Shown here piece by piece: positions 22,572 to 60,249 of a DNA stretch of 64,000 bases. The stretch comes from Myxococcota bacterium. GTDB taxonomy: Bacteria > Myxococcota_A > Polyangia > Nannocystales > Nannocystaceae. Positions within the stretch are counted from its first letter, which is position 1. Each line of letters starts with the position of its first letter. The notes below the pieces were generated by a model. The model was not told the DNA's origin. It worked only from the letters and a program-made list of their open reading frames with translations, and ran no database searches. Both the position numbers and the translations under genes were made by a program. The stretch covers positions 20,696 through 84,695 of the forward strand of contig JBCCHT010000054.1 of the NCBI GenBank assembly GCA_039028615.1. The letters are read 5' to 3'.

Positions 22572-24641
22572 GTGCACCGAGTCATCCCGTTGACCGCTCG
22601 GCCCCAGCTCCATCCTCGCGCCCGACGGTGCATCGTCTTGCGCGGTGCCAGGTCGGACACGAAACAGGCGGCCGAAGCCGTGCTTGCCGACCTCGATCCC
22701 GCCCGCGTCGTGTGGATTGGCCTCAACGACGAGAGTGCCCCTGCGCCGACCCACGAGCCCCGCCGCGTTCGCACGCTGCTCGGCCAGTCCTTCGATGCCG
22801 TGGTGCTGGATGGACACGACGGCCTGGACCCCGACGTGCTCGGCCAGTGCCAGGGCTTGGTGTGGGGCGGCGGCGGGCTCGTGCTGCGCCTGCCTCCCGC
22901 CACCGAGCTCCCCCGACCACAGACCCGCGCCCACCTGGCCGCTCACCCCTACCGAGCCGCGGACGTCGGCGTTCGGTTTCATCATCTCGTCGAGCGAGCC
23001 CTGCAGCGAGCCCCCACGGCCGAAGTCGTCACCGTACCGTCCTCACCCCCGCCCGAGCCCTTGGGCCCTCCACCGCGGCACATCGAAGGCACCGACGATC
23101 AGCGTCGCGTCGTCGATGCCCTGCACCACGCCTGGTCGTCCCCCGAGCCCACCCGCACCGTAGTGCTGGCCGACCGTGGCCGCGGCAAGTCCAGCGCCCT
23201 GGGACTCGCCCTCGCCAGCCTCGCCGACTACCCCCAGCGCACCATCGCCGTCACCGCAGCCCACCCCGACGCCGCGGCCGAAGTCTTCCGCTTCGCCCCC
23301 GACACCCACGCCCAGTTCGTCCCTCTGTCCAAACTCGTCGGTGGCGACGTCTCCCCCGATCTCATCGTGGTGGACGAGGCCGCGCAGCTCCCCGTCCCCA
23401 TGCTGCGGCGCCTGGTCGAAGTGCACCCGCGAGCCCACCTCGCCTTTGCCACCACCACCCACGGCTACGAAGGCACTGGCCGCGGCTTCGTGCTCCGCTT
23501 CCTGACCTGGCTCGAGACCCGCGAGCCCCCCGTCCAACGCCTCTCGCTCCGCACCCCCATTCGCTGGAGCGACGACGACCCCCTCGAGCGCCTCGTCTTC
23601 GACGCCCTGCTGCTCGATGCCGACCTCGCCCCCTTGCCCGCCGACCTGCTCCGGGCCCCCGACGCCGAGCTACGAACCGAACGACTCGACCGCAACGCCC
23701 TGCTCACCGACGAACCGAGCCTCCGCGAACTCTTCGGCCTCCTCGTCCACGCCCACTATCGAACCACCCCCACCGACCTCCACCGCCTGCTCGACGCCCC
23801 CAACCTCGCCGTGCACGTCGTGCGCTGGCGCGACCACATCGTCGCCGCCACCATCGTCGCCGAAGAGGGCGCCCTGTCCCCCGCGCAATGCCAATCCATG
23901 GCCCGCGGCCAGATCCGCATCCGGGCCCACGCCTTGCCCGACGCCCTCGTCGCCCACCTCGGCCACCCCGAAGCCGGCGAGCTGCCCATGCTCCGCAGCG
24001 TCCGCATCGCCACCCACCCCAAGCTACGACGCCAGCGACTCGCCACCCGCCTCGTCGAGCACGTCCACGCCCAGGCCACCCCCGCCCTGTTCGGCACCCT
24101 CTTCGGCGCCACCCCCTCGCTGCTCGCCTTCCGCCGCTCGCTCGGCTACCGACTCGTCCGCATCAGCGCCTCCCGAGGCGCCCGAACCGGCGAGCCCTCC
24201 GTCCTCATGCTCCGCCCCACCACCCCCCGAGCCGAGGCCCTCGTAAACACCCTCCGAGCCGAGCTCGCCCGCGACCTCCCCCGCCAGCTCGAGCTCATGC
24301 AAGCCGACCGAGAAACCCTCCTCGACCCCGCCCTCATCACCGCCCTCCACCACGACCTCCCCACCCCCGCCCCCTTGTCCCCCCAACAATGCGATGCCCT
24401 CGTCCGCACCTACGCCCCCGGCCCCCGCACCTTCGAATCCATCGCCCTCGCCCTCCAACAGTTCATCAAAGCCAACCCCCACCGCCTCACCCGCCTCCCC
24501 CCCTCCGACCAAGCCCTCATCCAATCCCGAGTCCTCGCCGCCCAAAGCTGGCACCACGCCACCCAATCCGCCGCCCTCCCCAGCATCCCCGCCGCCATGC
24601 GAGCCCTCCGCCGAGCCACCCGCCACCTCCTCGACCCCTAG
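22572..24641 (+). CDS. tmcA: tRNA(Met) cytidine acetyltransferase TmcA
   Basis: ADRGRGKSSALG, VVDEAAQLP, TTHGYEGTGRGF, PIRWSDDDPLE, LVHAHYRTTPTDL, GNAT RSVRIATHP. Confidence 0.9.
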   Translation: MHRVIPLTARPQLHPRARRCIVLRGARSDTKQAAEAVLADLDPARVVWIGLNDESAPAPTHEPRRVRTLLGQSFDAVVLDGHDGLDPDVLGQCQGLVWGGGGLVLRLPPATELPRPQTRAHLAAHPYRAADVGVRFHHLVERALQRAPTAEVVTVPSSPPPEPLGPPPRHIEGTDDQRRVVDALHHAWSSPEPTRTVVLADRGRGKSSALGLALASLADYPQRTIAVTAAHPDAAAEVFRFAPDTHAQFVPLSKLVGGDVSPDLIVVDEAAQLPVPMLRRLVEVHPRAHLAFATTTHGYEGTGRGFVLRFLTWLETREPPVQRLSLRTPIRWSDDDPLERLVFDALLLDADLAPLPADLLRAPDAELRTERLDRNALLTDEPSLRELFGLLVHAHYRTTPTDLHRLLDAPNLAVHVVRWRDHIVAATIVAEEGALSPAQCQSMARGQIRIRAHALPDALVAHLGHPEAGELPMLRSVRIATHPKLRRQRLATRLVEHVHAQATPALFGTLFGATPSLLAFRRSLGYRLVRISASRGARTGEPSVLMLRPTTPRAEALVNTLRAELARDLPRQLELMQADRETLLDPALITALHHDLPTPAPLSPQQCDALVRTYAPGPRTFESIALALQQFIKANPHRLTRLPPSDQALIQSRVLAAQSWHHATQSAALPSIPAAMRALRRATRHLLDP

Positions 24642-24760
24642 GATCCCCTCCCCACAACGCCCAACCCAAGAGCGCCCACAAAAAACGGAGCTCCAACTCT
24701 CCCGTTAGCAACCCCCGGCAAACCTCAACCGAAAACGCCTGCCCGCAGCTCCCCCCATTG

Positions 24761-25148
24761 CCCTTCCCCAGATCGGACGGGCCCGCGCAGCACGGCAGGG
24801 GCCCACTCGCGCGCAGCGGCGACTAATAGCCCCTACAAGCACCCAGCTCCAGCATCGCCGACGAGCACGAGTGGGAAGGAGGCCGAGCGTCAGCAGGCGC
24901 CCGTCCGTCCCCGCCCGAAGCTCATACAACCTCTCGACCCAGAGCCCACAACCAAAACCGCCCGCCCGCAGCTCCCCCCACTGCCCTTCCCCAGATCGGA
25001 CGGGCCCGCGCAGCACGGCAGGGGCCCACTCGCGCGCAGCGGCGACTATGAGCCCCTACAAGCACCCAGCTACAACATCGCCGACGAGCACGAGTGGGAA
25101 GGAGGCCGAGCGTCAGCAGGCGCCCGTCCGTCCCCGCCCGAAGCTCAT
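24761..25148 (-). repeat. Hairpin-element array A: two 165-bp cores (24761-24925, 24984-25148), period 223 bp
   Basis: Near-identical direct repeats cccttccccagatcggacgggccc...cgcccgaagctcat. Nested inverted repeats pair best on the minus (G-rich) strand. Confidence 0.95.
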
Positions 25149-25307
25149 ACAACCTCTCGACCCAGAGCCCACAACCTAATGCACCACCCACCCAAAGCTC
25201 ATAACCCAAACGACGAAACCATCTCCCCGAGAACCCCACCCAACCAAAAGAGAAGCCGACCGCCCAAAGACGCCCGGCCCCCTTTCAGTCAACCCCGAGC
25301 CCCGCCC

Positions 25308-26300
25308 TCACTGCTCCACACACATAAAGTAGAGCCCAAACCAATTCGCCCCACAACTCCGCGTATTGAGCTCGAGAAAATCCTCGACCCCCGTCCCCCG
25401 ACCATACGTCGCCGTAGCCCCCGAACTCGCCGAACTCCACCCAATACAAATGTTGTCCCCCAAGTTCGTCCAATCATCCGCCATCCCAGTAATCGTATCG
25501 AGGATCGGACAAGTCATCCCACACACCATGTCCTCGACCGGATTCTCCAACGGCATCGGCGCCCCCGCCCGAACCCCGAGCAGCGCCGTCCCATCGGTGA
25601 TCCACACGATCTCCCCGTCGTCGTTCGTATAGGCGGTGTACGGCTGCAAGACCCAGTCGTTCTGCCCATCACCCACCCACGGCGTCAACGAAGCCCGCCG
25701 CACGCTCGCGAACGAGAACATCGCCGCATACCCATCCGGGCAGGTGCTATCGGCATACGCGACCGGGTCGGTCCCGAAGTTCCCGTTCGGCAACGCATTG
25801 CCGAAGGTGATGTGCCGCTCTTCGATGACCCCCGAGCAGTCCGGCGCACACGCCCCCAGCGCGAGGGCATTGGCATTCCCTTCGTCGCAGCCCTCGGCCG
25901 GCCCCGGGTCCCCGTCGCCGCACACGTTGAGCTCACAGTTCGCGTTACAGGCCTGGCCGGGCCCGTTGTTCTCGCCGTCGTCGCAGATCTCCTGGAGCTC
26001 GGCATCGATGACACCGTCGCCACAGAAGGGATCCGGCTCACCCGTGCTCGTGTCGGCGCTCGACGTCTCGATGTCGCCCGTGGGCTCGCCCGAGGTCTGC
26101 GAGCCCGTGCCCGGCTCGCCGCCCGTGGTCGGCCCCGGAGGCGTGGCATCGGTGGCAACGGGGTCGGCCGAGTCGCTGCTTCCCCCGGTACCGCTACTCG
26201 CCGCTACGTCGGTCTCTCCCTCCGCATCGTCGGGGTTGAAGCACGCCGCAGGCGCGAGAGACAGAGCAACAAGGGCGGTACGACGTAGGGAAGTAAGCAT
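25308..26300 (-). CDS. Lipoprotein with Cys-rich repeats and C-terminal DUF1554-like domain
   Basis: Lipobox PAAC; CGDG repeats; ADSTC...RRASLTPWVGDGQNDWVLQPYTAY resembles DUF1554. Confidence 0.75.
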   Translation of the reverse strand: MLTSLRRTALVALSLAPAACFNPDDAEGETDVAASSGTGGSSDSADPVATDATPPGPTTGGEPGTGSQTSGEPTGDIETSSADTSTGEPDPFCGDGVIDAELQEICDDGENNGPGQACNANCELNVCGDGDPGPAEGCDEGNANALALGACAPDCSGVIEERHITFGNALPNGNFGTDPVAYADSTCPDGYAAMFSFASVRRASLTPWVGDGQNDWVLQPYTAYTNDDGEIVWITDGTALLGVRAGAPMPLENPVEDMVCGMTCPILDTITGMADDWTNLGDNICIGWSSASSGATATYGRGTGVEDFLELNTRSCGANWFGLYFMCVEQ

Positions 26301-26928
26301 GAGAACGAATACGGAGTAGCACGAGCCCGACCACCGCTCTAGTACGATCGTGCTACGAACCGTCCCCCAATACACGGGATGTCTCACCGACGGCGCATGC
26401 GGTCATCGAGACTCCCACGGCCCACCAAACAGCGATCGAAGGACACGCAGGACACGAACACGGATCGATGACCGACATGGTCAATTCATGCGCAAACGAT
26501 GCCCCATGGCCGTTTGACGCCGACGCCTCCACTCGCGATCGCGCACCGTCTGCCCGGCCCGCGCACACGTCGTCACGCCCTTCGAAACGCGAGCGCGACC
26601 GCCCGACGACTTCGAATGGCCGCGGTGTTTCGACGCGAACGATCGAGGCATTCTGCCGCGCCCGAACACGAACCGCCGTCGGTCTCCGTGCAGTGTCACA
26701 GTGCAGGTGAAGCCGAGCGATCCAACTCGACCGAGCGATGCCGCTCGACTCCACGCCAACGACGACGCACCTCGGAGCTTTGCTCCATTGTCTCCACGAA
26801 GGCTCGCCCCGCGGCTGAACGAACAAAACGCCAGACCGCGACACCTATGAGACGCCGCGGGGCGCCCATGCACGAAATCCACGTCGCATCGATTGACGAT
26901 CACCAGCCCGCCGTGAAACGGTCGCACG

Positions 26929-30545: not shown

Positions 30546-31960
30546 ATGTTGCTTAGATTAGGATGGGTTGGATGCGCGCTGGCCATGGCCGGCTGCAACG
30601 CGACGGACCCGTGTGGGCCGGGGGGCATCGCGTCCTCGACGACGTGGGCGAGGGGCGCGTCACCGTCCATGTCGATCGCTTCGACGACCACGCGCTCGTC
30701 GAGCTGACCCACCACGACGACGAGGGACCGCAGACATGGTCGGCCTTCATGACCGCGACCTGCGGCAGCGAGCCGATCGAGCTCGTCGCCCCCACCGATC
30801 GGCACACCCAAGTTCGCATGATCGAGCAATGGGTGACCGTGCTCGACAAAGAGGACGATCGCATCGAGGTGGTCACCGACTTCGGCGCGGGCCCACGCCA
30901 CGAGATTGCCACCGAGGTGATCGGCTGCCCGATCCCGCTTCACGATGGCATGGCCTTCGAGCGCAGCGACGGCACGGTGTGGTTTCACCCCGCGCCCGGC
31001 GATCCGACGGCCACGCCCGAGCCGCTCCTCGAGGGCTCGTACGTCGCCGAGACCGCCGGATTCACCGACCTCGATGCCTGCCAGCGCCTCAGCTCCGACA
31101 TCGCTCGCGACGGGGAAAGCAATGGTCTGCTCGTGCTCACCGCCGAGCGCTCGATCGTCCGCGTCTCGCCGGACGAGCCCGGCCCCACGCCCGTCCTCGC
31201 TGGCCCCGTGAGGTCGTTCGAGGTGCTCTCCAACCCTCGCTACATCGCCTGGCGGCGGGAGGCCGATGACCATCGCTTGATCCATGACCGCGACACGGGC
31301 TTCGACCTCGACCTCGGGCAGGAAATCCACCCCTCGGGAGCCCGCGGGAGGTTCACCAGCCTCCCCGGCGAACGCTGGGTGACGTACTACCCACCCTATC
31401 ACAACGCCGGCCATGTCGACACGGTGCTGATCGACCTCGAGAGCGTCGACCTAGAGCACGACCAACTCCCGAGTGTCGGTCTCGCCGCTCAATTCCATGG
31501 TTCGCTGACGCCGACGCGCCTGATGATCTCCCAGTGGGGCCAGGCCGCCATCTACGACACCGAGTCGAACGAAGAGCAGTGGCTCGACATGCCGCCGCCG
31601 GGCACCGGGCGCACCGAGGCGGGCTGGGTCGGGCACGAGTTCGATTTGTGGTCGGAAACGGTGACGGTGCACCTGTTACCGAGCGACGGTGGGCCCGTCG
31701 AGATCTTGGGGGAGGACCTGGACTTCCGCTTCAGCGTCACCGACCACGCAACCCTCGTCGGGCACGCGATCGCCGACGATGACCCACACGGGCCGCTGAT
31801 GCTCCACCCGCGAAACGGCGCGCCCACGGTCATCGCCGAGCGCGTGGTCGACTACCAGCTCCTGCGCAAGTCGGACACGCCGAGCGGTGAACACGAAGAG
31901 CTATTCTACGTGATGAGCGAGGGCGAACGCGCCGGGCTTTGGCGCTACGAGCTACCTTAG
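30546..31960 (+). pseudogene. Lipoprotein paralog 1 of a tandem triplet, frameshifted after the lipobox
   Basis: ATG at 30546 encodes MLLRLGWVGCALAMAGCNATDPC, matching paralog 2. The body (HRVLDDVGEG...) is in another frame; the shift lies at the G6 run 30620-30625. Confidence 0.8.
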
Positions 31961-32000
31961 CGCTGGCAATTGGCCACCGGACGGTGCACCATCGAAGGAT

Positions 32001-33416
32001 ATGTTGCTTAGATTAAGTTGGATTGGTTGCGCGCTGGCATTGGCCGGCTGCAACACGACACCGCCCTGTGAACAGGTGCTCCCCGATCGCGTGCTCGAAG
32101 ACGTCGGCGAAGGGCTGACCGGCTTCCATGTCGATCGCCTCGAAGGCCGCGCGCTCGTCGAGCTCACGCATCGCGTCGGTATCGACCCGCCGACCTGGTC
32201 GGCCTTCATGACCAACAGCTGCGGCGGCGAGACCATCGAGGTGGTGGCCGCCACCGATCGAGACACGGAGGTCCGCATGGTCGGGCCGTGGGTGACCGTG
32301 CTCGACGAGCAGGACAAGCGCATCGAGATCGTCACCGACTTCGGCGCGGGACCCCGCCACGAGCTCGGGACCGGGGTCATCGGCTGCCCGATCCCGATCG
32401 CCGACGGGCTGGCCTTCGAGCGGAACGACGGCACGGTGTGGTTTCAGCCCAACCCGTCCGATCCCGGCTCCGCGCCCCAGCTGCTCCTGGAGGGGTCGGC
32501 GGTCAGCGATCCCGACGGCTCCACCGGCCTCGACGGCTGCCCTTTCCACGACGCGGACCTCTTTCGCGACGGGGACAGCGATGGCCTGCTCGTGCTGACC
32601 GACGAAGGCTCGATCGTCCGCGTCTCGCCCGACGGCGCCCCCGAGCCGGTCGTCGAAGGGCCCGTCCAATCGTTCGAGGCGCTGTCCAACCCGCGCTACG
32701 TCGCCTGGCTTCGAGATGGCGACCACCACCGCTTGATCCGCGACCGCGACACGGGCTTCGATCGCGACCTTTGGCGAGAAATCGACCCCGAGTGGGGCTC
32801 CGGGCGGTTCACCAGCCTCCCGGGCGACCGCTGGGTGACCTTCCACGGACCCTTTCACAACCCCAGTCACATCAACACGGTGCTCATCGATCTCGAGAAC
32901 GTCGACCTCGAGAACGACCGCCTGAAAACCTTCAACCACGCGGTCGACTTTCACGGCTCGCTGAGCCCGACGCAGCTGGTGATCTCGCTGTGGAGCGAGA
33001 CCGGCATCTACGACACCGAGACCAAGCAGACCCAGTGGTTCGACATGGTGCCGCCCGAGCACGGGCGCGTGGAGGCGGGCTGGGTCGCCAGCGACGTGAG
33101 CCCCTACGAGCAGGTGTTCACGATGCTGCTGCTGCCCAGCGACGGCGGCCCGGTGGAGGTCTTGGGTGAAGACCTGGGTCGCCGCTTCGAAGTCACCGAC
33201 GATGGGACCCTCATCCACCACGAGACCACGGACACGGACCCTCACCCGCCGCTGACCCTCCGGCCGCGGCAGGGCGAGCCGGGAGTGCTCGCCGAGGACG
33301 TGGTCCAGTTCCAGCTGCTCCGCACCGCCGATACGCCGAGTGGAGAGCACGAAGAACTCTTCTACGCGATCACCGAGGGTGAAGACGCCGGGCTGTGGCG
33401 CCACGAGCTGCCGTAG
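32001..33416 (+). CDS. Lipoprotein paralog 2, probable beta-propeller
   Basis: Lipobox LAGC; highly similar to 30546-31960; ends GLWRHELP. Confidence 0.8.
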   Translation: MLLRLSWIGCALALAGCNTTPPCEQVLPDRVLEDVGEGLTGFHVDRLEGRALVELTHRVGIDPPTWSAFMTNSCGGETIEVVAATDRDTEVRMVGPWVTVLDEQDKRIEIVTDFGAGPRHELGTGVIGCPIPIADGLAFERNDGTVWFQPNPSDPGSAPQLLLEGSAVSDPDGSTGLDGCPFHDADLFRDGDSDGLLVLTDEGSIVRVSPDGAPEPVVEGPVQSFEALSNPRYVAWLRDGDHHRLIRDRDTGFDRDLWREIDPEWGSGRFTSLPGDRWVTFHGPFHNPSHINTVLIDLENVDLENDRLKTFNHAVDFHGSLSPTQLVISLWSETGIYDTETKQTQWFDMVPPEHGRVEAGWVASDVSPYEQVFTMLLLPSDGGPVEVLGEDLGRRFEVTDDGTLIHHETTDTDPHPPLTLRPRQGEPGVLAEDVVQFQLLRTADTPSGEHEELFYAITEGEDAGLWRHELP

Positions 33417-33426
33417 GACGAGAACG

Positions 33427-34851
33427 ATGCAGCGCCTCAGCCCCCATGGCATGGCCTGGCTCGGGCTCGCTTCGGTCCTGTGCATGACAGCCTCGACCGG
33501 CTGTCGCGAGCCCGTGTGCGGACAGCGAATTCCCGTGCGCATCGTCGAGGACCCGGGCGGACGGGTCTCCGACCTTCGCGTCGATCGATTCGGAGATCAG
33601 GTACTCGCCGAGTTTTCAGCCTACGACGGGGAACGAAGCCGCCGGTCGGCGGTTGTGACCGACGTCTGTGGTGGACCGCCCGTGCAGCTGTTCGCCCCGG
33701 TGGAGGCCGAGTCGCAGGCCCGCCTCGTCGACGGCCACGTGCTCGTGCTCGACCAGCCCTCACGGCGCATCGAGTTCGTCGCCGACGCGGGCCTCGGCGA
33801 GCGACACGAGGTGTTCACCGACGTGACCGGCTGCATCGCTCCGGTCGCGGGGGGCCTGGCCGCGGAGCGTGTTGACGGCACGGTGTGGTTTCACCCCGAT
33901 CCCTCCGACCCCGACGCTCAACCGCTGAGGATCTTCGCGGAGGCCATGCCCGATGCGGACGAGACCCTGGCGGACCTCGAGCCCTGCCAAAGCTCGGGGG
34001 TCGTAGCCGATGGCAACGGCGTCATCGTCCTGGCCGCGGATGGCTCCGTCGTTCACGTCTCGGTGCACGACCGCTCACGCCACACGCTGATCGAGGGACC
34101 CGTCGACTCGTTCGATGTGCTGTCCAACCCGCGCTTCATCGCCTGGCTCCGCTCCGAGGACGGCGACCGGCTGATTCGCGACCGACAGACCGGGGACGAC
34201 CGCCGACTGGGCCGACAGATCGACCCCTCGCAGGGCGACGGGCACTTCTTCCACTTCCCCAACGACCGCTGGGTGTGCTTCGTGGCGCGGGCGCACACGG
34301 AATACGACACCGATACTCGATGCGTGGATCTACAGACCAATGAGCTGGCGTCCTACCGCTTCGCCACGCACCCCTTCTACGGGTCTCTGAACGCCAACGT
34401 GCTCCTGTTCGGTGGTGGCGCGGGGCCGATCCGCTGGAACCGAGTCACCGACGACGACGTCACCCGGCTCAACTTCGACCCGCTGCCTCATACCTTCGGG
34501 CGTGCCCATGACGGCTTGCTCGGTCGGTCCCGCGACCCCGCCACCGACGAGCGGATGCTGACCCTGATGCCCACCGACGGCGGACCCATCCGGGTGCTGT
34601 CGCGAGAACCGGCCACGACATTTCGCCGCACTCGCAACGACACGATCATCAGCGTCGTCCGCAATGACGAGCCCGGCTCGGACGGAACGCTGATGCTCCA
34701 GACTCCGTCGGGCGAACGGCGACCGCTGGCCGAGCACGTGGAGCCGTACCTCTCCGTGCCCGGCTACCAGACCCCGGACGAAATCGACGAGCTGCTGTAT
34801 GCCGTCACCGAGGGTGACGACGCCGGGATCTGGCGCTACGTCCTGCCCTGA
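33427..34851 (+). CDS. Lipoprotein paralog 3, more diverged
   Basis: STGC lipobox-like; shared motifs DGTVWFHP, LSNPR(F/Y)IAW, GIWRYVLP. Confidence 0.8.
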   Translation: MQRLSPHGMAWLGLASVLCMTASTGCREPVCGQRIPVRIVEDPGGRVSDLRVDRFGDQVLAEFSAYDGERSRRSAVVTDVCGGPPVQLFAPVEAESQARLVDGHVLVLDQPSRRIEFVADAGLGERHEVFTDVTGCIAPVAGGLAAERVDGTVWFHPDPSDPDAQPLRIFAEAMPDADETLADLEPCQSSGVVADGNGVIVLAADGSVVHVSVHDRSRHTLIEGPVDSFDVLSNPRFIAWLRSEDGDRLIRDRQTGDDRRLGRQIDPSQGDGHFFHFPNDRWVCFVARAHTEYDTDTRCVDLQTNELASYRFATHPFYGSLNANVLLFGGGAGPIRWNRVTDDDVTRLNFDPLPHTFGRAHDGLLGRSRDPATDERMLTLMPTDGGPIRVLSREPATTFRRTRNDTIISVVRNDEPGSDGTLMLQTPSGERRPLAEHVEPYLSVPGYQTPDEIDELLYAVTEGDDAGIWRYVLP

Positions 34852-47695: not shown

Positions 47696-50701
<3,006 letters not shown>

Positions 50702-50829
50702 GCCTCGACGCCCATGATGCCCGCTGGGCGCAGGGGTGCAAATTCGCCGTCGCGACCCGCCAGCAGGCCCGTGCCGGGCGTACCGACGGCACCGCCGGAC
50801 CCGTGCCACAGCAGTGGTACCCTGCGGCC

Positions 50830-51739: not shown

Positions 51740-52921
51740 ATGGAAGAGCAAGACAATCCAGAGACAGCGCCGAGCATTCTGCAATTCCCGGGCAAGACGG
51801 TCGTGCCGCCTCCGCCTGAATTCGGCACCGTACTCGACGCTCCACCGCCGCGTCCCACCCCTCAGCCAACGCCCCAGGCGGAACCCTCGCGAGGGACGAG
51901 CCCGTGGATCTACGGCGGCTTGGTGTTCGCAATCGTAGCGGGCGGAATTGGGTTCGTGCTCGGCGGTCTGGGCGGCGATGACGAAGGCCAGGCATCGAAG
52001 CAGGCCGCGGATGCGAGCGCAGCGCCCAAGGCTTCCACGCAAGCCCCGGCCAGCAACGCGGGCGATGACGGTGCGGCCAAGGTCGCCGCCGCTCCGCCCG
52101 CAAAGGAGTCACCGTGCCCCGAAGGCATGGTGAAGATCGACGGCGGCAAGTTCTTCATGGGGACCGATCGTGATGCCGGGATCTTGCGGATGGCTCGTCC
52201 CGCTCACCAGGTCGAGGTGGGGCCCTACTGCATGGACATCTACGAGGTGCGGGTCGACGACTATCGCAGCTGCTCCGACAAGGGCGAGTGCAAGCGGGCG
52301 TTTCGCGAGAGCAAGTGGCCCGGTTCCGACGAGAGCGAGGTCGCGTGGAACGACCTGTGCAACGAGTCGTACGACGATCGCGGTCAGCATCCCGTCAACT
52401 GCGTCACCTGGGAGCAGTCGAAGCACTACTGCGAGCAACGAGGGGCCCGGCTGCCCACCGAGAGCGAGTGGGAGTATGCGGCGCGAGGGTCCGATGGGCG
52501 CGTCTACCCGTGGGGTGACGAGGCTCCAGATCAGCGGCACATGAACGGGTGCGGCACGGAGTGTCGGGACTGGCGGGCAGACAAAGAGCTGTCGGCGAAC
52601 CCGGCGGTGTTGCACGAGACGAACGATCGGTATCCGGGCACGGCTCCGGTGGGGAGCTTTCCCGCTGGGAAGACCCAGTGGGGGCTGCACGACATTGCGG
52701 GCAATGTGTTCGAGTGGACGGCGGATGCGTTCGAGCCCTATCCGGGGGCGGAGAAGGAGCCCGAGAAGGATGGGGGGACGCCGGCGCGGCGGGTGATTCG
52801 TGGGGGGGCGTTCAATAGCTTCTTTGCGGATTTTGCGGATCCGGCGTTGCGGTTTCCTCAGGTGGAGACGGCGCATACGCATGGGATTGGGTTTCGGTGT
52901 GCGGCGGATGTGCGGGAGTGA
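51740..52921 (+). CDS. Membrane-anchored FGE-sulfatase (SUMF1) domain protein
   Basis: CPEGMVKIDGGKFFMG, HPVNCVTW, RLPTESEWEYAARG, GLHDIAGNVFEW, RVIRGG, GFRCA. Confidence 0.9.
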   Translation: MEEQDNPETAPSILQFPGKTVVPPPPEFGTVLDAPPPRPTPQPTPQAEPSRGTSPWIYGGLVFAIVAGGIGFVLGGLGGDDEGQASKQAADASAAPKASTQAPASNAGDDGAAKVAAAPPAKESPCPEGMVKIDGGKFFMGTDRDAGILRMARPAHQVEVGPYCMDIYEVRVDDYRSCSDKGECKRAFRESKWPGSDESEVAWNDLCNESYDDRGQHPVNCVTWEQSKHYCEQRGARLPTESEWEYAARGSDGRVYPWGDEAPDQRHMNGCGTECRDWRADKELSANPAVLHETNDRYPGTAPVGSFPAGKTQWGLHDIAGNVFEWTADAFEPYPGAEKEPEKDGGTPARRVIRGGAFNSFFADFADPALRFPQVETAHTHGIGFRCAADVRE

Positions 52922-53035
52922 GGGCTTTGAGCGGCCTCTGTGTTGGTGAGAGTTTCGGGCGGAGATGAGCGGGTGCCTGCTGGGAGCGGGCGCCTGCTGG
53001 GCCCGGTGGTCAGTGGCTCGTTTGGGCTGGTGGGT

Positions 53036-53683
53036 ATGAGCTTTGGGCGGAGACGGACGGGCGCCTGCTGACGCTCGGCCTCCTTCCCACTCGTGCTCGT
53101 CGGCGATGCCTTACCTGGGTGCTTGTAGAAACTCTTAGTCGCCGCTGCGCGCGAGTGGGCCCCTGCCGTGCTGCGCGGGCCCGTCCGAGCTGGGGAATGG
53201 CACCGGTTGGAGCGGTGAGCGGCAGGAGAAACTCTGGTTGGTTCGGGGCTGGAGCTGTGGTTCGACGAAGCGGCGTTTGAGCTTTGGGCGGAGACGGACG
53301 GGCGCCTGCTGACGCTCGGCCTCCTTCCCACTCGTGCTCGTCGGCGATGCCTTAGCTGGGTGCTTGTAGAAACTCGTAGTCGCCGCTGCGCGCGAGTGGG
53401 CCCCTGCCGTGCTGCGCGGGCCCGTCCGAGCTGGGGAATGGCAATGTTTGGAGCGGTGAGCCGCGAGAAGTGTCGGTGCTCGATCGGTTGATTGCGGGTG
53501 TTCGTCGGGGTGGCGAGTATGAGCTTTGGGCGGAGACGGACGGGCGCCTGCTGACGCTCGGCCCCCTTCCCACTCGTGCTCGTCGGCGATGTTGCAGCTG
53601 AGTGCTTGTAGAAACTCATCGTCGCCGCTGCGCGCGAGTGGGCCCCTGCCGTGCTGCGCGGGCCCGTCCGAGCTGGGGAACGG
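53036..53683 (+). repeat. Hairpin-element array B: three 165-bp cores (53036-53200, 53277-53441, 53519-53683), period 241-242 bp
   Basis: Reverse complement of the array A/C unit. Each core is followed by tggagcggtgagc; decayed partial copy at ~52948-52982. Confidence 0.95.
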
Positions 53684-53930
53684 TCTTGGGTGGAGCGGTG
53701 AGCGGGCTGGGTCGGGGTGGTGGCGGAGGTTGTTCTGCGCCTCGGCGTGGGTGTACCGAACGAATTAAAGTACCTAGGTAACATTAGGTTTGCAAATGGG
53801 GGTCGGCGCGGGCGGGGGTGGGCGAGGGGTGGACTTGCTCATCTGAGAAACCATGATACCTGTGTACCAAGATAACAACGGGATGAGCGGGCGTGGTTTC
53901 GGCGGCTCATCGAGATGACGGACGAAAACG

Positions 53931-54644
53931 GTGAAAAAGATCGGGTTTTTCGAGCTGGTGGTGTCCGGCGTGGGCGCTTCGTTACTGATGGGCGGGTGTG
54001 GCACTACGCATGCCGAGTCTCATTCCGAACGAACGCCTCATGCTGGCCAGCGTGGGGTGCATGGCGAGCGGGGGGCGGGTCACTCGGCGCCTGCGGGTCA
54101 TGGCGGGCATGGTGGGCACGAGGGGCATGGGGATGCTCATGCGGTGGTCGGTGAGCCTCGGGTGGATGCGGAGGGGCGTTTTCCGACGGTGGGGTTCGAG
54201 CGGCGGGTGGAGCTGGAGTTGCCGTTTGCGGCGACGCAGGTGTGTCCGCTGTTCGAGCCGAGCGGGCGCAATCTGCTGTACGAGTGGTGGGAGCCGACGG
54301 TGCTTCGTCCGGCGCGAGGGCAAACGCTCGAGGGGCTGGTCACGGTGTCCACGCTGCACGAGTCGCACGAGGTCTTTCTGGTCGTGACCGAGCACGAGCC
54401 GGAGCGTGGGCACCTGCAGTACATGGTGCTGTGGGACGACTTCGAGCTTCAGCGCGTGGACATCACGTGCGTCGAGGGGGCCTCGAGCGCGTCGACGAAG
54501 GTCGAGTGGCTCGAGCGCAACGCGGGGCTGCACGACGAGGGGGTGTCGATGGTCTCGTCGTTCGTCATGGGTGGCGCGCTCGATCGGGTGGTCGAGCGCT
54601 ACGGGGACAACGTCGAAAAGACGCTGCGAACGGCGGATCGATGA
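53931..54644 (+). CDS. His-rich putative lipoprotein with SRPBCC/START-like domain
   Basis: MGGC lipobox-like, His/Gly-rich segment, then VCPLFEP...W.P...EHEPERGHLQY pattern. Confidence 0.65.
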   Translation: MKKIGFFELVVSGVGASLLMGGCGTTHAESHSERTPHAGQRGVHGERGAGHSAPAGHGGHGGHEGHGDAHAVVGEPRVDAEGRFPTVGFERRVELELPFAATQVCPLFEPSGRNLLYEWWEPTVLRPARGQTLEGLVTVSTLHESHEVFLVVTEHEPERGHLQYMVLWDDFELQRVDITCVEGASSASTKVEWLERNAGLHDEGVSMVSSFVMGGALDRVVERYGDNVEKTLRTADR

Positions 54645-55567
54645 AGAGGGCGCTGTTTACGACCTTGGACACGCACCCGAGCGTGCAGACGAGCGTCGCG
54701 GCTCGCTACGACGCGTTCGTTCGCCACGTCACCGTGGCGGACGCGCTGGGGTTCGATGCGTTCTGGGTGGGCGAGCACCACGGCACGAACGTCGGGCGGA
54801 TTCCGAACCCGGCGGTGCTGCTGGCCGCGGCGGCAGCGAAGACCCGGAGGATTCGGCTCGGCCCCGCGGTGTCGGTGCTGCCACTTCGGCCGCCACGGCT
54901 CGTGGCCGAGGACTACGCGATGCTGGATGCGCTGTCGGGCGGGCGTCTCGACATGGGCGTCGGCGTCGGATCGCAGCGGGTCGAGTTCGAGCACCTCGGG
55001 GTGGACTTCGATCAGCGCCGCGCGTTGTTCGATGCGCATCTCGACGAGCTCGAGCGGGCATGGGAGACCGATTCGGGGCCGGACAAGCCGCCGCTCTACG
55101 TTGCGACGCTGAGTGAGGAAGGGGCGTTTCGGGTAGGCAAGGCGGGGCGATCGATGTTGACGCTGGTCAGCCCCGCGGTACGGGACCTCGACGAGATCGA
55201 GCGGCGGCTTCGTGCGCACGCGCGAGGCCTCGAGGAACACGGCGGCGCGGCGAATGCCGACGCGGTGGTGATGGTCTTCGCCTGCGCGGCGGCCAACGAA
55301 CGAGAAGCGCGACTGCGGGCGAGCCGATCGCTCGGCAACTTCATCGAGCTGTCCTCGGGCACCCGGCCCGACGATCCCGTCGCGCTGTGCGACGCGATGC
55401 GGCAACGAGGCACGGGCTTGTTCGCATCGCGGGAGCAGATGACGGCCCGGGTCGATGCGCTCGTCCGGCGCGGGTTCGAAAACCTGTGTTTTTTCGTCGA
55501 TTTCGGGACGATGGAGGCGAACGCGGTCGAAGAGACCATGCGCAGCCTGGCTCCGTCCTGTCTGTGA
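54641..55567 (+). CDS. Luciferase-like (LLM) flavin-dependent monooxygenase
   Basis: ADALGFDAFWVGEHH, RIRLGPAVSVLPL, VAEDYAMLDALSGGRLDMGVG; ATGA overlap. Confidence 0.9.
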   Translation: MKRALFTTLDTHPSVQTSVAARYDAFVRHVTVADALGFDAFWVGEHHGTNVGRIPNPAVLLAAAAAKTRRIRLGPAVSVLPLRPPRLVAEDYAMLDALSGGRLDMGVGVGSQRVEFEHLGVDFDQRRALFDAHLDELERAWETDSGPDKPPLYVATLSEEGAFRVGKAGRSMLTLVSPAVRDLDEIERRLRAHARGLEEHGGAANADAVVMVFACAAANEREARLRASRSLGNFIELSSGTRPDDPVALCDAMRQRGTGLFASREQMTARVDALVRRGFENLCFFVDFGTMEANAVEETMRSLAPSCL

Positions 55568-55598
55568 GTGGAATGCTCGGGTACACACAGGGCTGGCG

Positions 55599-55940
55599 AT
55601 GACGACGAAGAAGAAGACCAAGAAGAAGGCGCGGAAGAAGACCAAGGCGAGCACGAGCGCGCGGTCCTCCGCCGCCCCGCCACAGCGCGAATACGTCGTC
55701 GAGCGCATCCAGACCGGCGTGCGGATGGAGAAGCGCCTCATCAAGGTGCTCAAGGCGCTGGCCGAGTATCACGACCTTTCCTTGGGCGACTTGCTCGAAG
55801 GCATCGTGTTGCACGCCTTCGAGGCGAAGTCTCCGTTCGGTCCCGACACCATCGCTCGCATCGAGCAACTCAAGAGCGTCTACGGGCTCGACCTCGACGC
55901 CGCCGCCAGCCATCGCCTGCACGAAAAGGACTCCGGCTGA
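55599..55940 (+). CDS. Small basic putative ribbon-helix-helix DNA-binding protein
   Basis: Lys-rich tail then RIQTGVRMEKRLIKVLKALAEYHDLSLGDLLEGIV (strand-helix-helix). Confidence 0.7.
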   Translation: MTTKKKTKKKARKKTKASTSARSSAAPPQREYVVERIQTGVRMEKRLIKVLKALAEYHDLSLGDLLEGIVLHAFEAKSPFGPDTIARIEQLKSVYGLDLDAAASHRLHEKDSG

Positions 55941-55979
55941 ACCATCGCGGCGGGCCGCCCGAGCCCGATGAGGCGTCGT

Positions 55980-56708
55980 TCATAGACGACGAGGCGGTCG
56001 CTCGCGGGCGACCGAGATCGTGTCGCGAAGGCCGGCCGGGGGCAGATCGTCGGGCCCGAACTCGAGCGAGAGCTCCTGCCCGGGCTCGACCGTGCGCCGG
56101 GTCCAGATCCCCGCTCCGGTCAGGAAATCGAAGCGCTCCGACTCGGAAGAGCCCGCGGGAAAGTTGTACGCGAAGCCGGACGGCGACTCGATCTTGATCA
56201 AGGCCGTCGCCGCCTCCTCGGGGACCGTCGTCTGCAGGGTGCGTCGCCCGTCGCTGGACTCGACCAGAGCCTCGTCCACGTCGGCGTCGTCGATGAACCC
56301 GCCCTTGCCGTCCTTGTACGAGACCCACGCCCGAACCTCGCGCCCGGGCTCGATCCCGTGCAGATCGGTCCCCAGACGGCCATCGATGACCACTGGTCGA
56401 TCCCCCACGATGAACGCCCCCAGCTTCGTCGCATGGTCCACCCCGGCCAAGCGCATCCAGTACCAACCGGGCTTCAGCTCCGACAGTGCGAAGCACCCGT
56501 CGTCATCGAGGTGCACGATGTGATCGCCGCCACGGCGGTGCCCGATCCACACCACCCCCGCCTTCATCGGGTGCCCGTCGTGCCCACGAATGCACCCCTT
56601 GATCGCCGCCCCCGCACTCCGTCGCCCCGCCGCGTGCACCGAGCGATCCACCGTCCCTGCCATGAGCAGAGCACCACCGACGACCATTGTCCTGCGTCCA
56701 AGCGCCAT
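55980..56708 (-). CDS. Secreted protein with carboxypeptidase-regulatory-like domain
   Basis: GRRTMVVGG Tat-like signal; IKGCIRGHDGHP...DDDGCFALSELKPGWY. Confidence 0.6.
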   Translation of the reverse strand: MALGRRTMVVGGALLMAGTVDRSVHAAGRRSAGAAIKGCIRGHDGHPMKAGVVWIGHRRGGDHIVHLDDDGCFALSELKPGWYWMRLAGVDHATKLGAFIVGDRPVVIDGRLGTDLHGIEPGREVRAWVSYKDGKGGFIDDADVDEALVESSDGRRTLQTTVPEEAATALIKIESPSGFAYNFPAGSSESERFDFLTGAGIWTRRTVEPGQELSLEFGPDDLPPAGLRDTISVARERPPRRL

Positions 56709-56862
56709 GGCCCCCGGTACGATCAATTCGGCCGATGTCTTTCACCCACTCGTGTCTTTGTCCTAGCCCCGACACCGATTGCAGCCCCGACATCCCATTT
56801 GGCTCCTGAATCGCGAACCGCCCCGCACGGCACTGCGACGGCTCGTTCACAGCCCCACCCAT

Positions 56863-57780
56863 TCAGACGCGGGGCTCGAGCTCCCGCAGGTACTCCGCCT
56901 TGTCGAACACATAAGGCCCCAGCCCGTAGATCCAGTGACGGTGAAACTGCTCGAAGTCCGACCACACCACCACCTCGTCGAGCACCGTGATCCGCACCAT
57001 CAGAAACCAACACTCCACGATCCCGCAGGTGCACCCCAGCACCGTCGCCCTCCCGCGCTGCGGGTCATCCGGCGCGAGCACGAACCCCTTCGCCGCCGTA
57101 TCCCACGGCTCGTCCAGCAGCTCGCGACGAGGCAACCGCAGCCAGTCCGAGCTCATGCTCATGTAGTCCCCCGCAAAGTCACCGATGTCCTCCCGCGCCT
57201 CCCCATCCGCCACCCGAAGCTCGATCTCCCGATCCACGAAGGGCCGCTCCACCCGACGAACCAACTCGACGAGCGCCTCCCCATTGATCGAGATCTCGCA
57301 AGGCACATTCCCTTCCCCCCCCGGCCACGACTCACCCCCAGGGTTGTCCGTCAGCCTCAACCGATCCCTGCGCGAAGCCGGCCGCCCCCGCGCCAACGCT
57401 TCGATCTCCGCCCGCGTGGGCGCAGCCAACCCCCGACGCACCGCCACCGGCCCCTCCACCCCCGGACCATCCACCCGACCCGACATCAACCAAGGCTTCC
57501 CCGGCCGCCCCGGCACCCACCCCTTCTCCAGCCCACGCCGAATCCACCCCGCCACCGCCCCGGGCGTCACCGCCCTCCCCCTCAACCGAGCCTCATTCGA
57601 CGGATGATGCTGCCCCAGCTCCACCAACAAACTGGCTCCCCCACCATCCTCGACCGCCACCGCCAACACCAACCGAGTCCGCCCACTCCTCTGCTCCACC
57701 GTAGGCCGACGACGAACCCGCCACCGATACCCCACCCCATCGACCTCGATCCGCCGCGACCCCTTCGCCGGCAAACTCAC
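56863..57780 (-). CDS. Hypothetical two-domain protein
   Basis: N-domain KGSRRIEVDGVGYRWRVRRRPT...GW.P; C-domain LGCTCGIVECW...VVWSDF. GTG start inferred. Confidence 0.7.
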   Translation of the reverse strand: MSLPAKGSRRIEVDGVGYRWRVRRRPTVEQRSGRTRLVLAVAVEDGGGASLLVELGQHHPSNEARLRGRAVTPGAVAGWIRRGLEKGWVPGRPGKPWLMSGRVDGPGVEGPVAVRRGLAAPTRAEIEALARGRPASRRDRLRLTDNPGGESWPGGEGNVPCEISINGEALVELVRRVERPFVDREIELRVADGEAREDIGDFAGDYMSMSSDWLRLPRRELLDEPWDTAAKGFVLAPDDPQRGRATVLGCTCGIVECWFLMVRITVLDEVVVWSDFEQFHRHWIYGLGPYVFDKAEYLRELEPRV

Positions 57781-57938
57781 CGCCCCCACCCCGCCTTCCC
57801 ACAACCCAACGCCGTCATCCTCCCTCAGCATCCGCGCCCCCCGACCACCCCGTCAACCATCCGCCCCCACCCCACGAGGAGCCCTCAAACCTCCAGTCTC
57901 TCAACCCACCGCCGACCCCCTCACCACTCCACCCAAGC

Positions 57939-58344
57939 CCCTTCCCCAGATCGAACAAGCCCGCGCAACACGGCAGAGCCCCACTCGCCCGCAGCGGCGA
58001 CGACCTGCTTCTACAAGCACCCAGCTAACACATCGCCGACGAGCACGAGTGGGAAGGAGGCCGAGCGTCAGCAGGCGCCCGTCCGCCTCCGCCCGAAGCT
58101 CATACTCGCTGCCCGAGGAGCACCCGCAGTCAACCGAACGAGCAAAACCAGGCCCCGCGTCTCACCGCTCCACCCAAGACCCTTCCCCAACACGGACGGG
58201 CCCGCGCAGCACGGCAGAGTCCCACTCGCCCGCAGCGGCGACGACCTGCTTCTACAAGCACCCAGCTAATACATCGCCGACGAGCACGAGTGGGAAGGAG
58301 GCCGAGCGTCAGCAGGCGCCCGTCCGTCCCCGCCCGAAGCTCAT
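57939..58344 (-). repeat. Hairpin-element array C: two 165-bp cores (57939-58103, 58180-58344), period 241 bp
   Basis: Same unit and orientation as array A; the linker is homologous to the second linker of array B. Confidence 0.95.
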
Positions 58345-58403
58345 ACCGCGACCCACCGCCCGTAACTCATACCGACACCCACCGCCGAAAACCCAAGGGC
58401 CCT

Positions 58404-59126
58404 CTACTCAATCCCCAACGCCGCCAAATCCGCCTCCGCCTGCGGCTGCCACCCCTGATTCGCCCGCGGACTCGCCGGACTCGGATGCAACATCGCCCCC
58501 ACCGCAATCGACTCATCCAAAACCCCCCGAGCCCTCTTCGCCGCAAACGCCCCAATCCCCACCACGATCCGCGGCTCCAACACCTCCATCGTCTCCCGCA
58601 ACGCCCGATTACAAGCCTCGAACAACGGCTCCCTCTCCGCCTTCGGCAGCTTGTCCGGCGTCCTGTTCCGCCCGCTCTCCTCGAGAAACGCCAGCGGACA
58701 ATAGTTCACGATGAAGAACCGCGAGAAGAAGCTCCGCGCCGTCCCGTAACGACTCTTCGCCCACCCCCAAAGCCGCGTCCCGCTGACCTCCGACCGCGTG
58801 CACGCAAACCCATCGATCGGCCGCTTCGGATGCTCCGGCTTCGGCTTCCCCACCTTCCCTTCGATCTTCACGAAGTCCCGCGCATACGAGACCTCGCCGA
58901 ATGGAATCCCCGTCTGCGCCATCCCGAAGGGCCCCGGGTTCATCCCCAGCAAGATCACCCGCTTCTTCTTCTTGCCGTACCGCTCGAGGTACTGCTCGTG
59001 TGTATTCCGGGCGTAACGCAGCGGGTTGTAGACGTGCGTGACGGGAGCATCGAAGTGCAGCGCATCGACGGCTCGGCACAGGCGGCGGTTGATCCGGACC
59101 AGGTCCACGGCTGCGGACCTTAGCAA
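58404..59126 (-). CDS. SMUG1-family (family 3) uracil-DNA glycosylase
   Basis: VYNPLRYA, GMNPGPFGMAQTGIPFG, RSEVSGTRLW, NYCPL, HPSPASP. Confidence 0.92.
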   Translation of the reverse strand: MLRSAAVDLVRINRRLCRAVDALHFDAPVTHVYNPLRYARNTHEQYLERYGKKKKRVILLGMNPGPFGMAQTGIPFGEVSYARDFVKIEGKVGKPKPEHPKRPIDGFACTRSEVSGTRLWGWAKSRYGTARSFFSRFFIVNYCPLAFLEESGRNRTPDKLPKAEREPLFEACNRALRETMEVLEPRIVVGIGAFAAKRARGVLDESIAVGAMLHPSPASPRANQGWQPQAEADLAALGIE

Positions 59127-59771: not shown

Positions 59772-59901
59772 CGCGCGATCGCAGTGTACGCCCAGGTAGG
59801 GCTGCGCGCACGCGGGTGCGATGGCGCTCACCCACGCGCCCCGGGGCCGTAGCCCAAAGGTGCGCGGGAGGCCGAACCCTTCGGATCGCCGAGGCGACCG
59901 A

Positions 59902-60249
59902 CTAGAGGTTCTTCTGGATGAAGTCCTCGAGGGGCTTGATCGAGCCGGGGTTGCCGACGATGTGATCGGCCACCTCGCCGTTCTTGAACAGCAGCAAGGT
60001 CGGGATGCTGCGCACACCGAAGCGCGCGGCGACCTTGGGGTTCTGGTCGATGTCGACCTTGACGATCTTGGCCTTCCCGGCGAAGCGCGGGGCGAGAGTG
60101 TCGAGGTGAGGCGCGATCGCGCGGCAGGGCCCGCACCAGGTTGCCCAGAAGTCGACGAGCACGGGGATGTCGGACTTGGTGACGACGGTATCGAAGCCGG
60201 CCTCGTCGGTATGAAGCACAGCGTCGGGAGCATTGGTGTCGAGAGGCAT
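59902..60249 (-). CDS. trxA: Thioredoxin
   Basis: [26 protein letters not shown]. Confidence 0.95.

What the first reader, a model, noticed from the sequence alone, without database searches (positions are those of the whole stretch)
24761..25148. A 165-bp long-hairpin element, seven copies in three tandem arrays, folding on one strand with GTAG at the apex
Seen: cores at 24761, 24984, 57939 and 58180 in one orientation and at 53036, 53277 and 53519 in the other, all exactly 165 bp and all intergenic. Copy A1 has nested stems CGGACGGGC/GCCCGTCCG (24774-82/24899-907), CCCACTCG/CGAGTGGG (24802-09/24868-75) and CGGCGA/TCGCCG (24817-22/24855-60). Several mismatches are C/A on the C-rich strand but G-T wobbles on the G-rich strand. 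The variable apex keeps a short stem closing GTAG in different ways: tgctt-GTAG-aagca in C, gctt-GTAG-gggc in A, gagtgctt-GTAG-aaactc in B3. Established: GTAG is the signature tetranucleotide of one REP class processed by HUH RAYT/TnpA(REP) enzymes, but there it lies at the foot of a short hairpin, not in the loop. Inference: a structured ssDNA/RNA element of REPIN/ERIC-like size with unusual architecture. No cognate transposase lies in this window.
Basis: partly seen in the sequence, partly recalled or inferred. Interest (0 to 1): 0.85.

Follow-up and report, generated by a model that had tools for sequence, protein, structure and literature searches.

The report
Transposon-end hairpins that recode neighbouring genes
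These seven repeats belong to a family of over a hundred DNA hairpins in this bacterium; the same hairpin sits inside both ends of a jumping gene found elsewhere, so they are likely left-over transposon ends, and the genes beside them have lost cytosines on one strand, probably because that strand is repeatedly left single-stranded there.

Summary
The seven 165-bp copies and their stems are real. They are a local subfamily of 103 hits (138 with two sister families) in a 12.3-Mb, 68%-GC genome, with relatives in 9 of 72 same-family genomes. The hairpin covaries (11 of 31 pairs; 0 of 500 shuffles). Neighbouring copies face each other 32:1. Arrays B and C bracket a 5.5-kb block that is absent in relative G001. 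The apex GTAG is not family-wide (at most 25 of 79 copies), but G(T/C)AG sits at a fixed foot position on the other strand (76 of 79). One-strand folding holds for this subfamily only. No RAYT or retron fits. One complete IS1182-family element carries this hairpin inside both ends, and related hairpins elsewhere keep transposon scraps. This genome keeps no such transposase or ends, and most IS1182 relatives lack the hairpin. Flanking genes show a derived, strand-locked loss of C. Best reading (0.55): IS1182-carried end cassettes, stranded and copied locally. Main rival (0.3): an independent REP-like element with an unknown nickase. Earlier scan notes on this genome already reported the halo and the IS1182 link. 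Interest 0.55.

The parts
24761..24925 (-). Hairpin copy A1 (G-rich strand is -)
24984..25148 (-). Hairpin copy A2, tandem with A1 (223-bp period)
53036..53200 (+). Hairpin copy B1
53277..53441 (+). Hairpin copy B2
53519..53683 (+). Hairpin copy B3
57939..58103 (-). Hairpin copy C1, facing array B
58180..58344 (-). Hairpin copy C2
24787..24790 (+). A1 foot tetranucleotide GCAG on the C-rich strand (GTAG in 63 and GCAG in 13 of 79 F1 copies); it faces CGTC at 24888-24891 in a small internal loop
   Evidence: and direct reading of the sequence
24808..24869 (-). A1 conserved core box (CGTGCTCG opposite CTGCGCGCG, two invariant G-T pairs) with the apical stem and variable loop; the core is shared with F2 and with hairpins of other genera
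24833..24836 (-).
52922..58403 (.). Block bracketed by arrays B and C, carrying five ordinary genes (one luciferase-like monooxygenase, four without a Pfam match). Absent in relative G001, where the two flanking stop codons are 1 nt apart
51740..52921 (+). FGE-sulfatase-domain gene that ends into array B; 3' end recoded (G+T 0.63 against 0.47 at the empty site)
58404..59126 (-). Uracil-DNA glycosylase-family gene that ends into array C; 3' end recoded
22572..24641 (+). TmcA-like gene converging on array A; on the element strand its 3' part shows C>G 60-80 against G>C 3-14 relative to each of four orthologues
25308..26387 (-). DUF1554 gene that ends into array A on the element strand
24000..25600 (-). 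Compositional halo of array A (G+T on + strand 0.26-0.31; background 0.49)
52500..54150 (+). Halo of array B (G+T on + strand 0.60)
57000..58800 (-). Halo of array C (G+T on + strand 0.27-0.36)

Best explanation
The repeats are paired-stem DNA hairpin cassettes of a type found just inside both ends of an IS1182-family transposon, and here they are likely stranded transposon arms that were carried to gene ends, lost the transposase, and were then copied locally. SHOWN: covarying hairpin; inward-facing pairs; position just after stop codons; filled and empty orthologous sites; one intact IS1182 with this hairpin inside both terminal repeats and a 4-bp CTAG duplication; transposon scraps beside related solo hairpins in other genomes; copies most like their own neighbours; derived C loss locked to the element strand. 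INFERRED: (1) an IS1182 of this clade delivered pairs of arms, sometimes with passenger genes between them as in block B-C; (2) insertions were kept mainly between converging gene ends; (3) the hairpin forms in single-stranded DNA and provokes nicking or fork stalling with template switching, which would give the tandem and inverted copies, the scrambled spacers and the perfectly re-paired variable stems; (4) the G-rich strand is repeatedly left single-stranded for 0.5-1.5 kb, so its cytosines are damaged and replaced by G or T. The enzyme behind steps 3-4 is not identified. A DDE transposase has no known need for such a hairpin.
For: L178 (metagenome contig): IS1182 transposase (NF033551, 382 bits, cut-off 270) between two inward-facing F1 copies (E 1e-40 and 6e-30 against this genome's model), inside terminal repeats with a CTAG duplication. 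G074 (L260) and a remnant in G072 (L264) carry a related hairpin in both ends, and G217 (L276) a short core in its left end. Of 56 core-pattern hits in fetched loci of relatives, 16 have an IS terminal repeat or an IS-internal scrap; 11 of 54 remain after removing the query IS and three matches of 16-24 nt; the null rate for the repeat is 0.7%. One G001 copy keeps a transposase C-terminal scrap on its inner side. Polarity: adjacent copies face each other 32 times and point away once; 74 of 89 outer copies follow a same-strand gene. Upstream genes end in TAG in 32 of 72 cases against 30% background (p=0.007). Empty sites: G001 at block B-C; G000 at secY-adk, which holds a facing pair in G002 and G004. 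Local copying: the nearest relative of 65 of 82 clustered copies is a cluster mate; 7 of 9 copies of the window subfamily lie within 34 kb; spacers hold local tandem and inverted duplications. DNA-type pairing: the F2 stem has 8 different left arms, yet 269 of 287 cells are Watson-Crick and none is G-T. Halo: G+T 0.66 next to copies, fading over about 0.5 kb (5') and 1.5 kb (3'); 25 of the 48 most skewed regions of the genome hold an F1 copy; it follows the element strand in both sense (72) and antisense (8) genes; it is absent at the empty G001 site, with C>G 44:6 and C>T 20:5.
Against: This genome has no transposase of that clade. 0 of 138 flanks carry a transposase scrap, and terminal-repeat matches are no better than random. 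Its one IS1182 fragment has no hairpin. Only 1 of 51 loci of relatives had a scrap, and no F2 locus of relatives showed one. The arms are optional and patchy: of 31 IS1182 loci, 4 carry the strict core, 3 more (one genome) a variant seen by eye, and close sisters lack it, among them 7 identical and probably recent copies in G076. That pattern fits repeated capture as well as ancestry. CTAG itself is not enriched at upstream stops (7 of 72 against 12%), and stop-to-hairpin distances vary from 8 to over 400 bp. Spacers of different pairs are essentially unrelated. The halo is absent around hairpins in genus g17 and around intact IS copies, and it also surrounds the two RAYT-like genes of this genome, which lack these hairpins. 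The orthologues are 68-85% identical, so C>G may hide two-step changes.
Confidence: 0.55

Rival explanations
1. An independent REP/REPIN-like element. A single-strand nuclease (HUH-like, unidentified or lost) recognises the G(T/C)AG foot and the bulged stem on the C-rich strand, nicks it and spreads the hairpin locally in direct and inverted copies. IS1182 ends only captured it. Nicks on the C-rich strand would leave the G-rich strand single-stranded and explain the halo.
For: G(T/C)AG at a fixed foot position in 76 of 79 F1 copies, and the same GCAG/CGTC loop in g17 hairpins (by eye). E. coli TnpA(REP) needs a 5' GTAG plus a stem mismatch and builds tandem arrays (PMC3333891 passages). The arms are patchy on the IS tree. 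Copying is local. The two RAYT-like loci of this genome show the same converging skew and duplicated short repeats. The hairpins are landing sites for a group II intron and an IS4 element, as REPs and attC sites are known to be (comparison recalled).
Against: No RAYT is flanked by the hairpins. The genome's RAYT-like protein has no match in G001, G002, G004, in 11 of 11 g17 genomes or in 7 of 7 g4 genomes, yet is common in genera without the hairpin. NF047646 gave no match in 8 of 10 hairpin-bearing genomes and none above cut-off. F2 and F3 lack the GYAG foot. The length of 165 bp is far above the 20-40 bp of REPs (PMC3733652 abstract).
Confidence: 0.3
2. A 3'-untranslated RNA structure (stabiliser, RNase III site or insulator against read-through) kept by selection after host genes; inside the IS it would shield the transposase from incoming transcription.
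For: 74 of 89 outer copies follow a same-strand gene. Two invariant G-T pairs lie on that strand. Pneumococcal repeats are enriched between converging genes and are co-transcribed (PMC3049150 passages).
Against: It does not explain the halo in antisense genes, facing pairs inside the co-directional secY-adk operon, or the G-T-free re-paired F2 stems. The terminator scan found no terminator-like site at the B or C copies, and Rfam gave no match.
Confidence: 0.1
3. Retro-inserted copies of retron msDNA, like the repeats reported in Nannocystis exedens.
For: The size matches myxobacterial msDNA, the foot motif loosely resembles the resident msd foot, and the genome has a retron. PMC6868368 mentions duplicated msr/msd repeats without an RT for Retron-Nex1.
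Against: The resident msr-msd is conserved in G000 and in all five congeners, including G003, where no hairpin was found. It gives no hit to the F1-F3 HMMs at E<=1 or to the covariance model at E<=5. The copies have no msr and no a1/a2 repeats.
Confidence: 0.04

Closest known systems
IS1182-family insertion sequences and their non-autonomous derivatives (NCBIfam NF033551; ISMno38-like clade with CTAG duplication)
   Same: The hairpin lies inside the terminal repeats at both ends of intact members; solo copies in other genomes keep IS scraps; pairs face inward and can bracket passenger genes.
   Different: Most clade members have plain short ends. This genome's copies lack terminal repeats and transposase. 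IS1272 inserts INTO hairpins without duplication (PMC4923244 passages, PMC5678879 abstract), whereas here the hairpin is carried INSIDE the element. My searches found no report of long subterminal hairpins in this family.
REP/BIME/REPIN with RAYT (TnpA-REP), and TIRtrons
   Same: Intergenic imperfect hairpins in tandem and inverted clusters near gene ends; G(T/C)AG at a stem foot on one strand; targeted by other mobile elements.
   Different: 165 bp or more with two conserved boxes; the tag sits in an internal loop of a longer stem; no cognate RAYT; found inside a DDE element.
Pneumococcal BOX/RUP/SPRITE-type repeats
   Same: Structured IS-related repeats enriched between converging genes (PMC3049150).
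   Different: Those have terminal inverted repeats and move as single units; here each copy is one directional arm, and flanking genes are recoded.
GRINS (PMC8256042)
   Same: Kilobase-scale regions with coupled G and T excess on one strand that recode proteins; mechanism unknown.
   Different: In GRINS the skewed region is itself the repeat, inside genes; here the skew lies in unique DNA and is anchored on a hairpin.
Retron msDNA and the Ne160-like repeats of Nannocystis exedens
   Same: About 160 nt, long hairpin, myxobacterial host.
   Different: No msr, no a1/a2 repeats, no homology to the resident retron; Ne160 itself could not be compared.

Membership tests
IS1182-derived non-autonomous element | Sequence shared with the ends of an autonomous IS1182 | tested here: met
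   F1 model hits both ends of L178 (E 1e-40, 6e-30); transposase above the NF033551 cut-off
IS1182-derived non-autonomous element | Terminal inverted repeats on the copies in this genome | tested here: not met
   No terminal-repeat motif near any of 138 copies; best matches at or below random
IS1182-derived non-autonomous element | Target duplication (CTAG) | tested here: inconclusive
   Present in L178 and L260; in G000 TAG stops are enriched (32 of 72) but CTAG is not (7 of 72); the halo removes C; the G001 empty site has TAG without a preceding C
IS1182-derived non-autonomous element | Filled and empty orthologous sites | tested here: met
   Block B-C absent in G001; secY-adk pair absent in G000
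IS1182-derived non-autonomous element | Cognate transposase in the genome | tested here: not met
   (assembly 96.7% complete, 94 contigs, many ending in these repeats)
IS1182-derived non-autonomous element | Mobilised in trans by the transposase | not testable with these tools
   Needs a transposition assay
REP/REPIN with RAYT | GT(A/G)G-type tetranucleotide 5' at the foot of an imperfect stem | tested here: inconclusive
   GTAG 63 and GCAG 13 of 79 on the C-rich strand, but within an internal loop; absent in F2 and F3
REP/REPIN with RAYT | 20-40 bp unit | tested here: not met
   165 bp core
REP/REPIN with RAYT | RAYT gene flanked by the repeat, co-occurring with it | tested here: not met
REP/REPIN with RAYT | Single-strand cleavage by the nuclease | not testable with these tools
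   Biochemistry needed
Retron msr-msd | msr with branching G, a1/a2 repeats and an adjacent RT | tested here: not met
Integron attC | RYYYAAC/GTTRRRY boxes (recalled), same-orientation cassette arrays, integrase nearby | tested here: not met
   Boxes not seen in the consensus; facing pairs; none of the 10 tyrosine recombinase hits lies beside a copy
Rfam RNA family | Match at the gathering score | tested here: not met
GRINS | The skewed region is itself a repeat inside genes | tested here: not met
   The skew lies in unique flanking genes; the repeat is intergenic

The most novel reading that the evidence does not exclude
An undescribed superfamily of self-spreading single-strand DNA hairpins in myxobacteria, with a G(T/C)AG/CGTC foot loop and a CGTGCTCG/CTGCGCGCG core. 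An unidentified nickase processes them. They ride in IS1182 ends for long-range moves, duplicate locally into facing pairs that capture passenger genes, and act as site-anchored, strand-specific mutators that rewrite 1-2 kb of neighbouring host genes.
Probability: 0.3. Interest if true: 0.85.

Novelty: new variant of a known kind. Interest (0 to 1): 0.55.

Why it matters
As a repeat family alone it is a modest addition: IS-derived structured repeats are known. Two things lift it. First, long covarying hairpins inside the ends of a DDE transposon were not found in my eight literature searches, and they suggest a single-strand step or a hitch-hiking element. Second, the copies mark a derived, direction-locked loss of C in host genes, with matched empty sites as controls. 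That gives a defined sequence on which to test how intense local strand skews such as GRINS arise, and whether a repeat can be a portable local mutator.

Tried and rejected
RAYT/REP: two RAYT-like genes are present but flanked by other short repeats, and their distribution does not follow the hairpins. The Y2/IS91 search found nothing, but its controls did not ring either, so it is uninformative. Retron copy: rejected; Lampson and Rice 1997 is not held, and the review's supplement held no Ne160 text (its figures are not readable). Integron attC: rejected. Rpn/YhgA-type nucleases lie beside several F1 copies in G002, but PF12784 has 0 hits in G000 and G001, 10 in G005 and 5 in G003, which lack F1; G000's YhgA-like genes are not near copies. 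The genome contigs pattern scan gave 18 singletons; I inspected one (L034, a true copy) and the F models hit no other. Viral contigs: no true copy and no transposase relative. Short-loop core patterns gave only scattered, probably chance hits. Sequencing runs: no RNA holder listed. The one DNA run is probably the source sample; it only shows that B3 and C1 lie on one contig. The IS1182 tree is the quick version; the careful search did not finish. Genes were called with my own codon-usage script, so gene counts are approximate. The covariance search scored at most 36 candidates per genome, so 35 is a floor.

Full report
Observation. The seven copies lie where stated, align over 165 bp and are intergenic; the quoted stems and apex GTAG motifs read as described. 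The window is part of contig C54 of G000 (12.27 Mb, 68% GC, 94 contigs). I infer a myxobacterium from its size, gene content and retron type; no call names it.

Family. Iterated nhmmer gave 103 hits (F1; 48 clusters). Looking into strongly skewed regions without F1 revealed two more families, F2 (20 hits) and F3 (15 hits). F1 and F2 share the foot GCCTG(C/T)T and the core CGTGCTC/CTGCGCGCG. A G070 element joins F1 feet to an F3-type core (by eye). The window copies are a minor subfamily: 7 of its 9 members lie within 34 kb. A covariance model found matches in 10 of 73 family genomes: at least 35 in G000, at least 35 in G002, 10 in G004, 5 in G001, 6 in G095 and 4 in G096. A relaxed core pattern found further hairpin families, with 48 pattern matches in G076, a few of them probably chance; the model scores these weakly (E 4e-6 to about 1).

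Structure. Over 26 copies, 11 of 31 pairs change on both sides and no shuffle reaches the observed values (relatedness inflates this test). The F2 stem is 16-17 bp with 8 different left arms; 269 of 287 cells are Watson-Crick, none is G-T and 17 are A-C (17 of 18 copies parsed). I read this as DNA-level re-templating of one arm from the other (inference). Strand preference is mixed: the G-rich strand is favoured in the window subfamily and F1c, the C-rich strand slightly in F1 main and, as DNA, in F2 (9 copies each). The apex GTAG is in at most 25 of 79 parsed F1 copies. On the C-rich strand, GTAG (63) or GCAG (13) occupies a fixed foot position in 76 of 79, facing CGTC. Rfam gave nothing.

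Arrangement and mobility. Among 138 copies, neighbours face each other 32 times, run in tandem 38 times and point away once. 74 of 89 outer copies follow a gene on the same strand. In G001 the FGE-sulfatase and UDG genes end 1 nt apart, so arrays B and C with five genes between them form a 5.5-kb insertion in G000. G005 has F2 copies near both of these flanks, on two contig ends, so their pairing is inferred. G002 and G004 hold a facing F1 pair between secY and adk, where G000 has about 200 bp without a hairpin. For 65 of 82 clustered copies the most similar copy is a cluster mate. Spacers contain local tandem and inverted duplications and are essentially unrelated between clusters.

What carries it. 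RAYT, retron, integron and Rpn candidates failed (see Tried and rejected). Metagenome contig L178 holds a complete IS1182-family element: CTAG, terminal repeat, F1 hairpin pointing in, transposase, F1 hairpin pointing in, terminal repeat, CTAG. I saw this contig before consulting earlier notes but had read the IS as a possible passenger; note e1-9953209 prompted the tests below. Among 31 loci of this IS clade, the core is in both ends of L178, L260 and L264 and in the left end of L276; one further genome shows a variant by eye; close sisters L261, L354, L355 and L356 lack it, and others carry unrelated palindromes at the same place (quick tree). Of 56 core hits in loci of relatives, 16 had an IS terminal repeat or an internal scrap; 11 of 54 remain without the query IS and three very short matches. 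One G001 copy keeps a transposase scrap, the only one in 51 loci tested. Against this, G000 has no such transposase, 0 of 138 flanks carry a scrap, terminal-repeat matches are at chance level, and CTAG is not enriched although TAG is. So the IS route is well supported for related hairpins and plausible for F1, but not shown for the window copies or for F2 and F3. The patchy tree leaves capture by the IS open.

Halo. On the element strand, G+T is 0.66 in the first 200 bp on each side and fades over about 0.5 kb (5') and 1.5 kb (3'); 25 of the 48 most skewed regions hold an F1 copy. At four-fold sites C falls from 0.51 to 0.26 in 72 same-strand genes and rises to 0.66 in 8 antisense genes, so the bias follows the element and not transcription. 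It is derived: it is absent at the empty G001 site, and differences run C>G 44:6 and C>T 20:5 in the FGE gene, 41:8 and 20:5 in UDG, and similarly in tmcA against four orthologues. Filled sites in relatives against empty G000 sites give C>G 474:210 within 700 nt, but also 356:256 beyond it. The halo is strong in G000 and G070, weak in G002 and G004, and absent in g17 and around intact IS copies. It also surrounds the two RAYT-like genes of G000. It therefore depends on the host as well as the hairpin. Single-strand exposure with cytosine damage is my inference from established chemistry; no call tests it.

Literature. Eight full-text searches listed no description of this element; subscription papers are not covered. 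What I saw of each paper: PMC6006769, abstract and section 12; PMC3333891, PMC3733652, PMC3049150, PMC4923244 and PMC6868368, passages; PMC8256042, abstract and discussion; PMC5678879, abstract. Lampson and Rice 1997 was seen only as a citation and one sentence in PMC6868368. The attC box consensus, and the comparison with elements that target attC or REP sites, are recalled.

Verdict. A real structured mobile repeat. Most likely (0.55) IS1182-carried end cassettes that were stranded and copied locally; an independent REP-like element with an unknown nickase is the main rival (0.3). It works like a non-autonomous IS derivative, but the copies in this genome fail the terminal-repeat test, so I do not file them as standard MITEs. 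New variant of a known kind; interest 0.55.

Noticed in passing
L104 1050-3081 (G002:C286): A group II intron (TIGR04416, 337 bits) is inserted inside the 5' arm of an F1 hairpin, on the C-rich strand.
   Followed up: partly
L308, L336, L339 (G076): An IS4/Tn5-like element sits at the same position in the 5' arm of related hairpins.
   Followed up: partly
L001 1390-2322 (G000:C13) and G000:C8:231422-232351: Two RAYT-like HUH genes (below the NF047646 cut-off) flanked by short CCGAGGG-type inverted repeats that are duplicated in tandem, with the same converging G+T halo. This protein family matches in 36 of 73 family genomes, up to 40 times per genome.
   Followed up: partly
L022 2660-2916, minus strand (G000:C16): Intact myxobacterial retron (msr-msd, RT, WGR-like gene downstream), highly conserved in five congeners; G002 has a second, different retron.
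   Followed up: partly
L356, L362, L367, L359: Other IS1182 members carry unrelated long palindromes just inside their terminal repeats, as if this position collects hairpin cassettes.
   Followed up: no
L423-L435 (G002): F1 pairs bracket kinase-TPR genes and lie beside Rpn/PD-(D/E)XK genes and a repeated unnamed protein of about 160 aa.
   Followed up: partly
G000, 5' flanks of F1 copies: The apex-like motif TG(C/T)TT(C/G)(G/T)(C/A)G occurs in the 80 nt upstream of 47 of 97 F1 hits (shuffled mean 1.3). Part of this is the family's own leader; it may be a repeated binding site.
   Followed up: partly
window 7398-8508: 96-bp coding repeats (cysteine-rich myxobacterial type) inside a 955-aa gene.
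   Followed up: no
window 30563-34851: Three tandem paralogous genes at about 1.45-kb spacing; no Pfam match for the ORFs scanned.
   Followed up: no
window 50341-51447 (+) and 59133-60233 (-): Two related ECF-type sigma factor genes (about 70-76% identical) face each other around the B-C region; an older duplication also seen in relatives.
   Followed up: no
L015 (G004:C16): A rare outward-facing pair of F1 copies.
   Followed up: no
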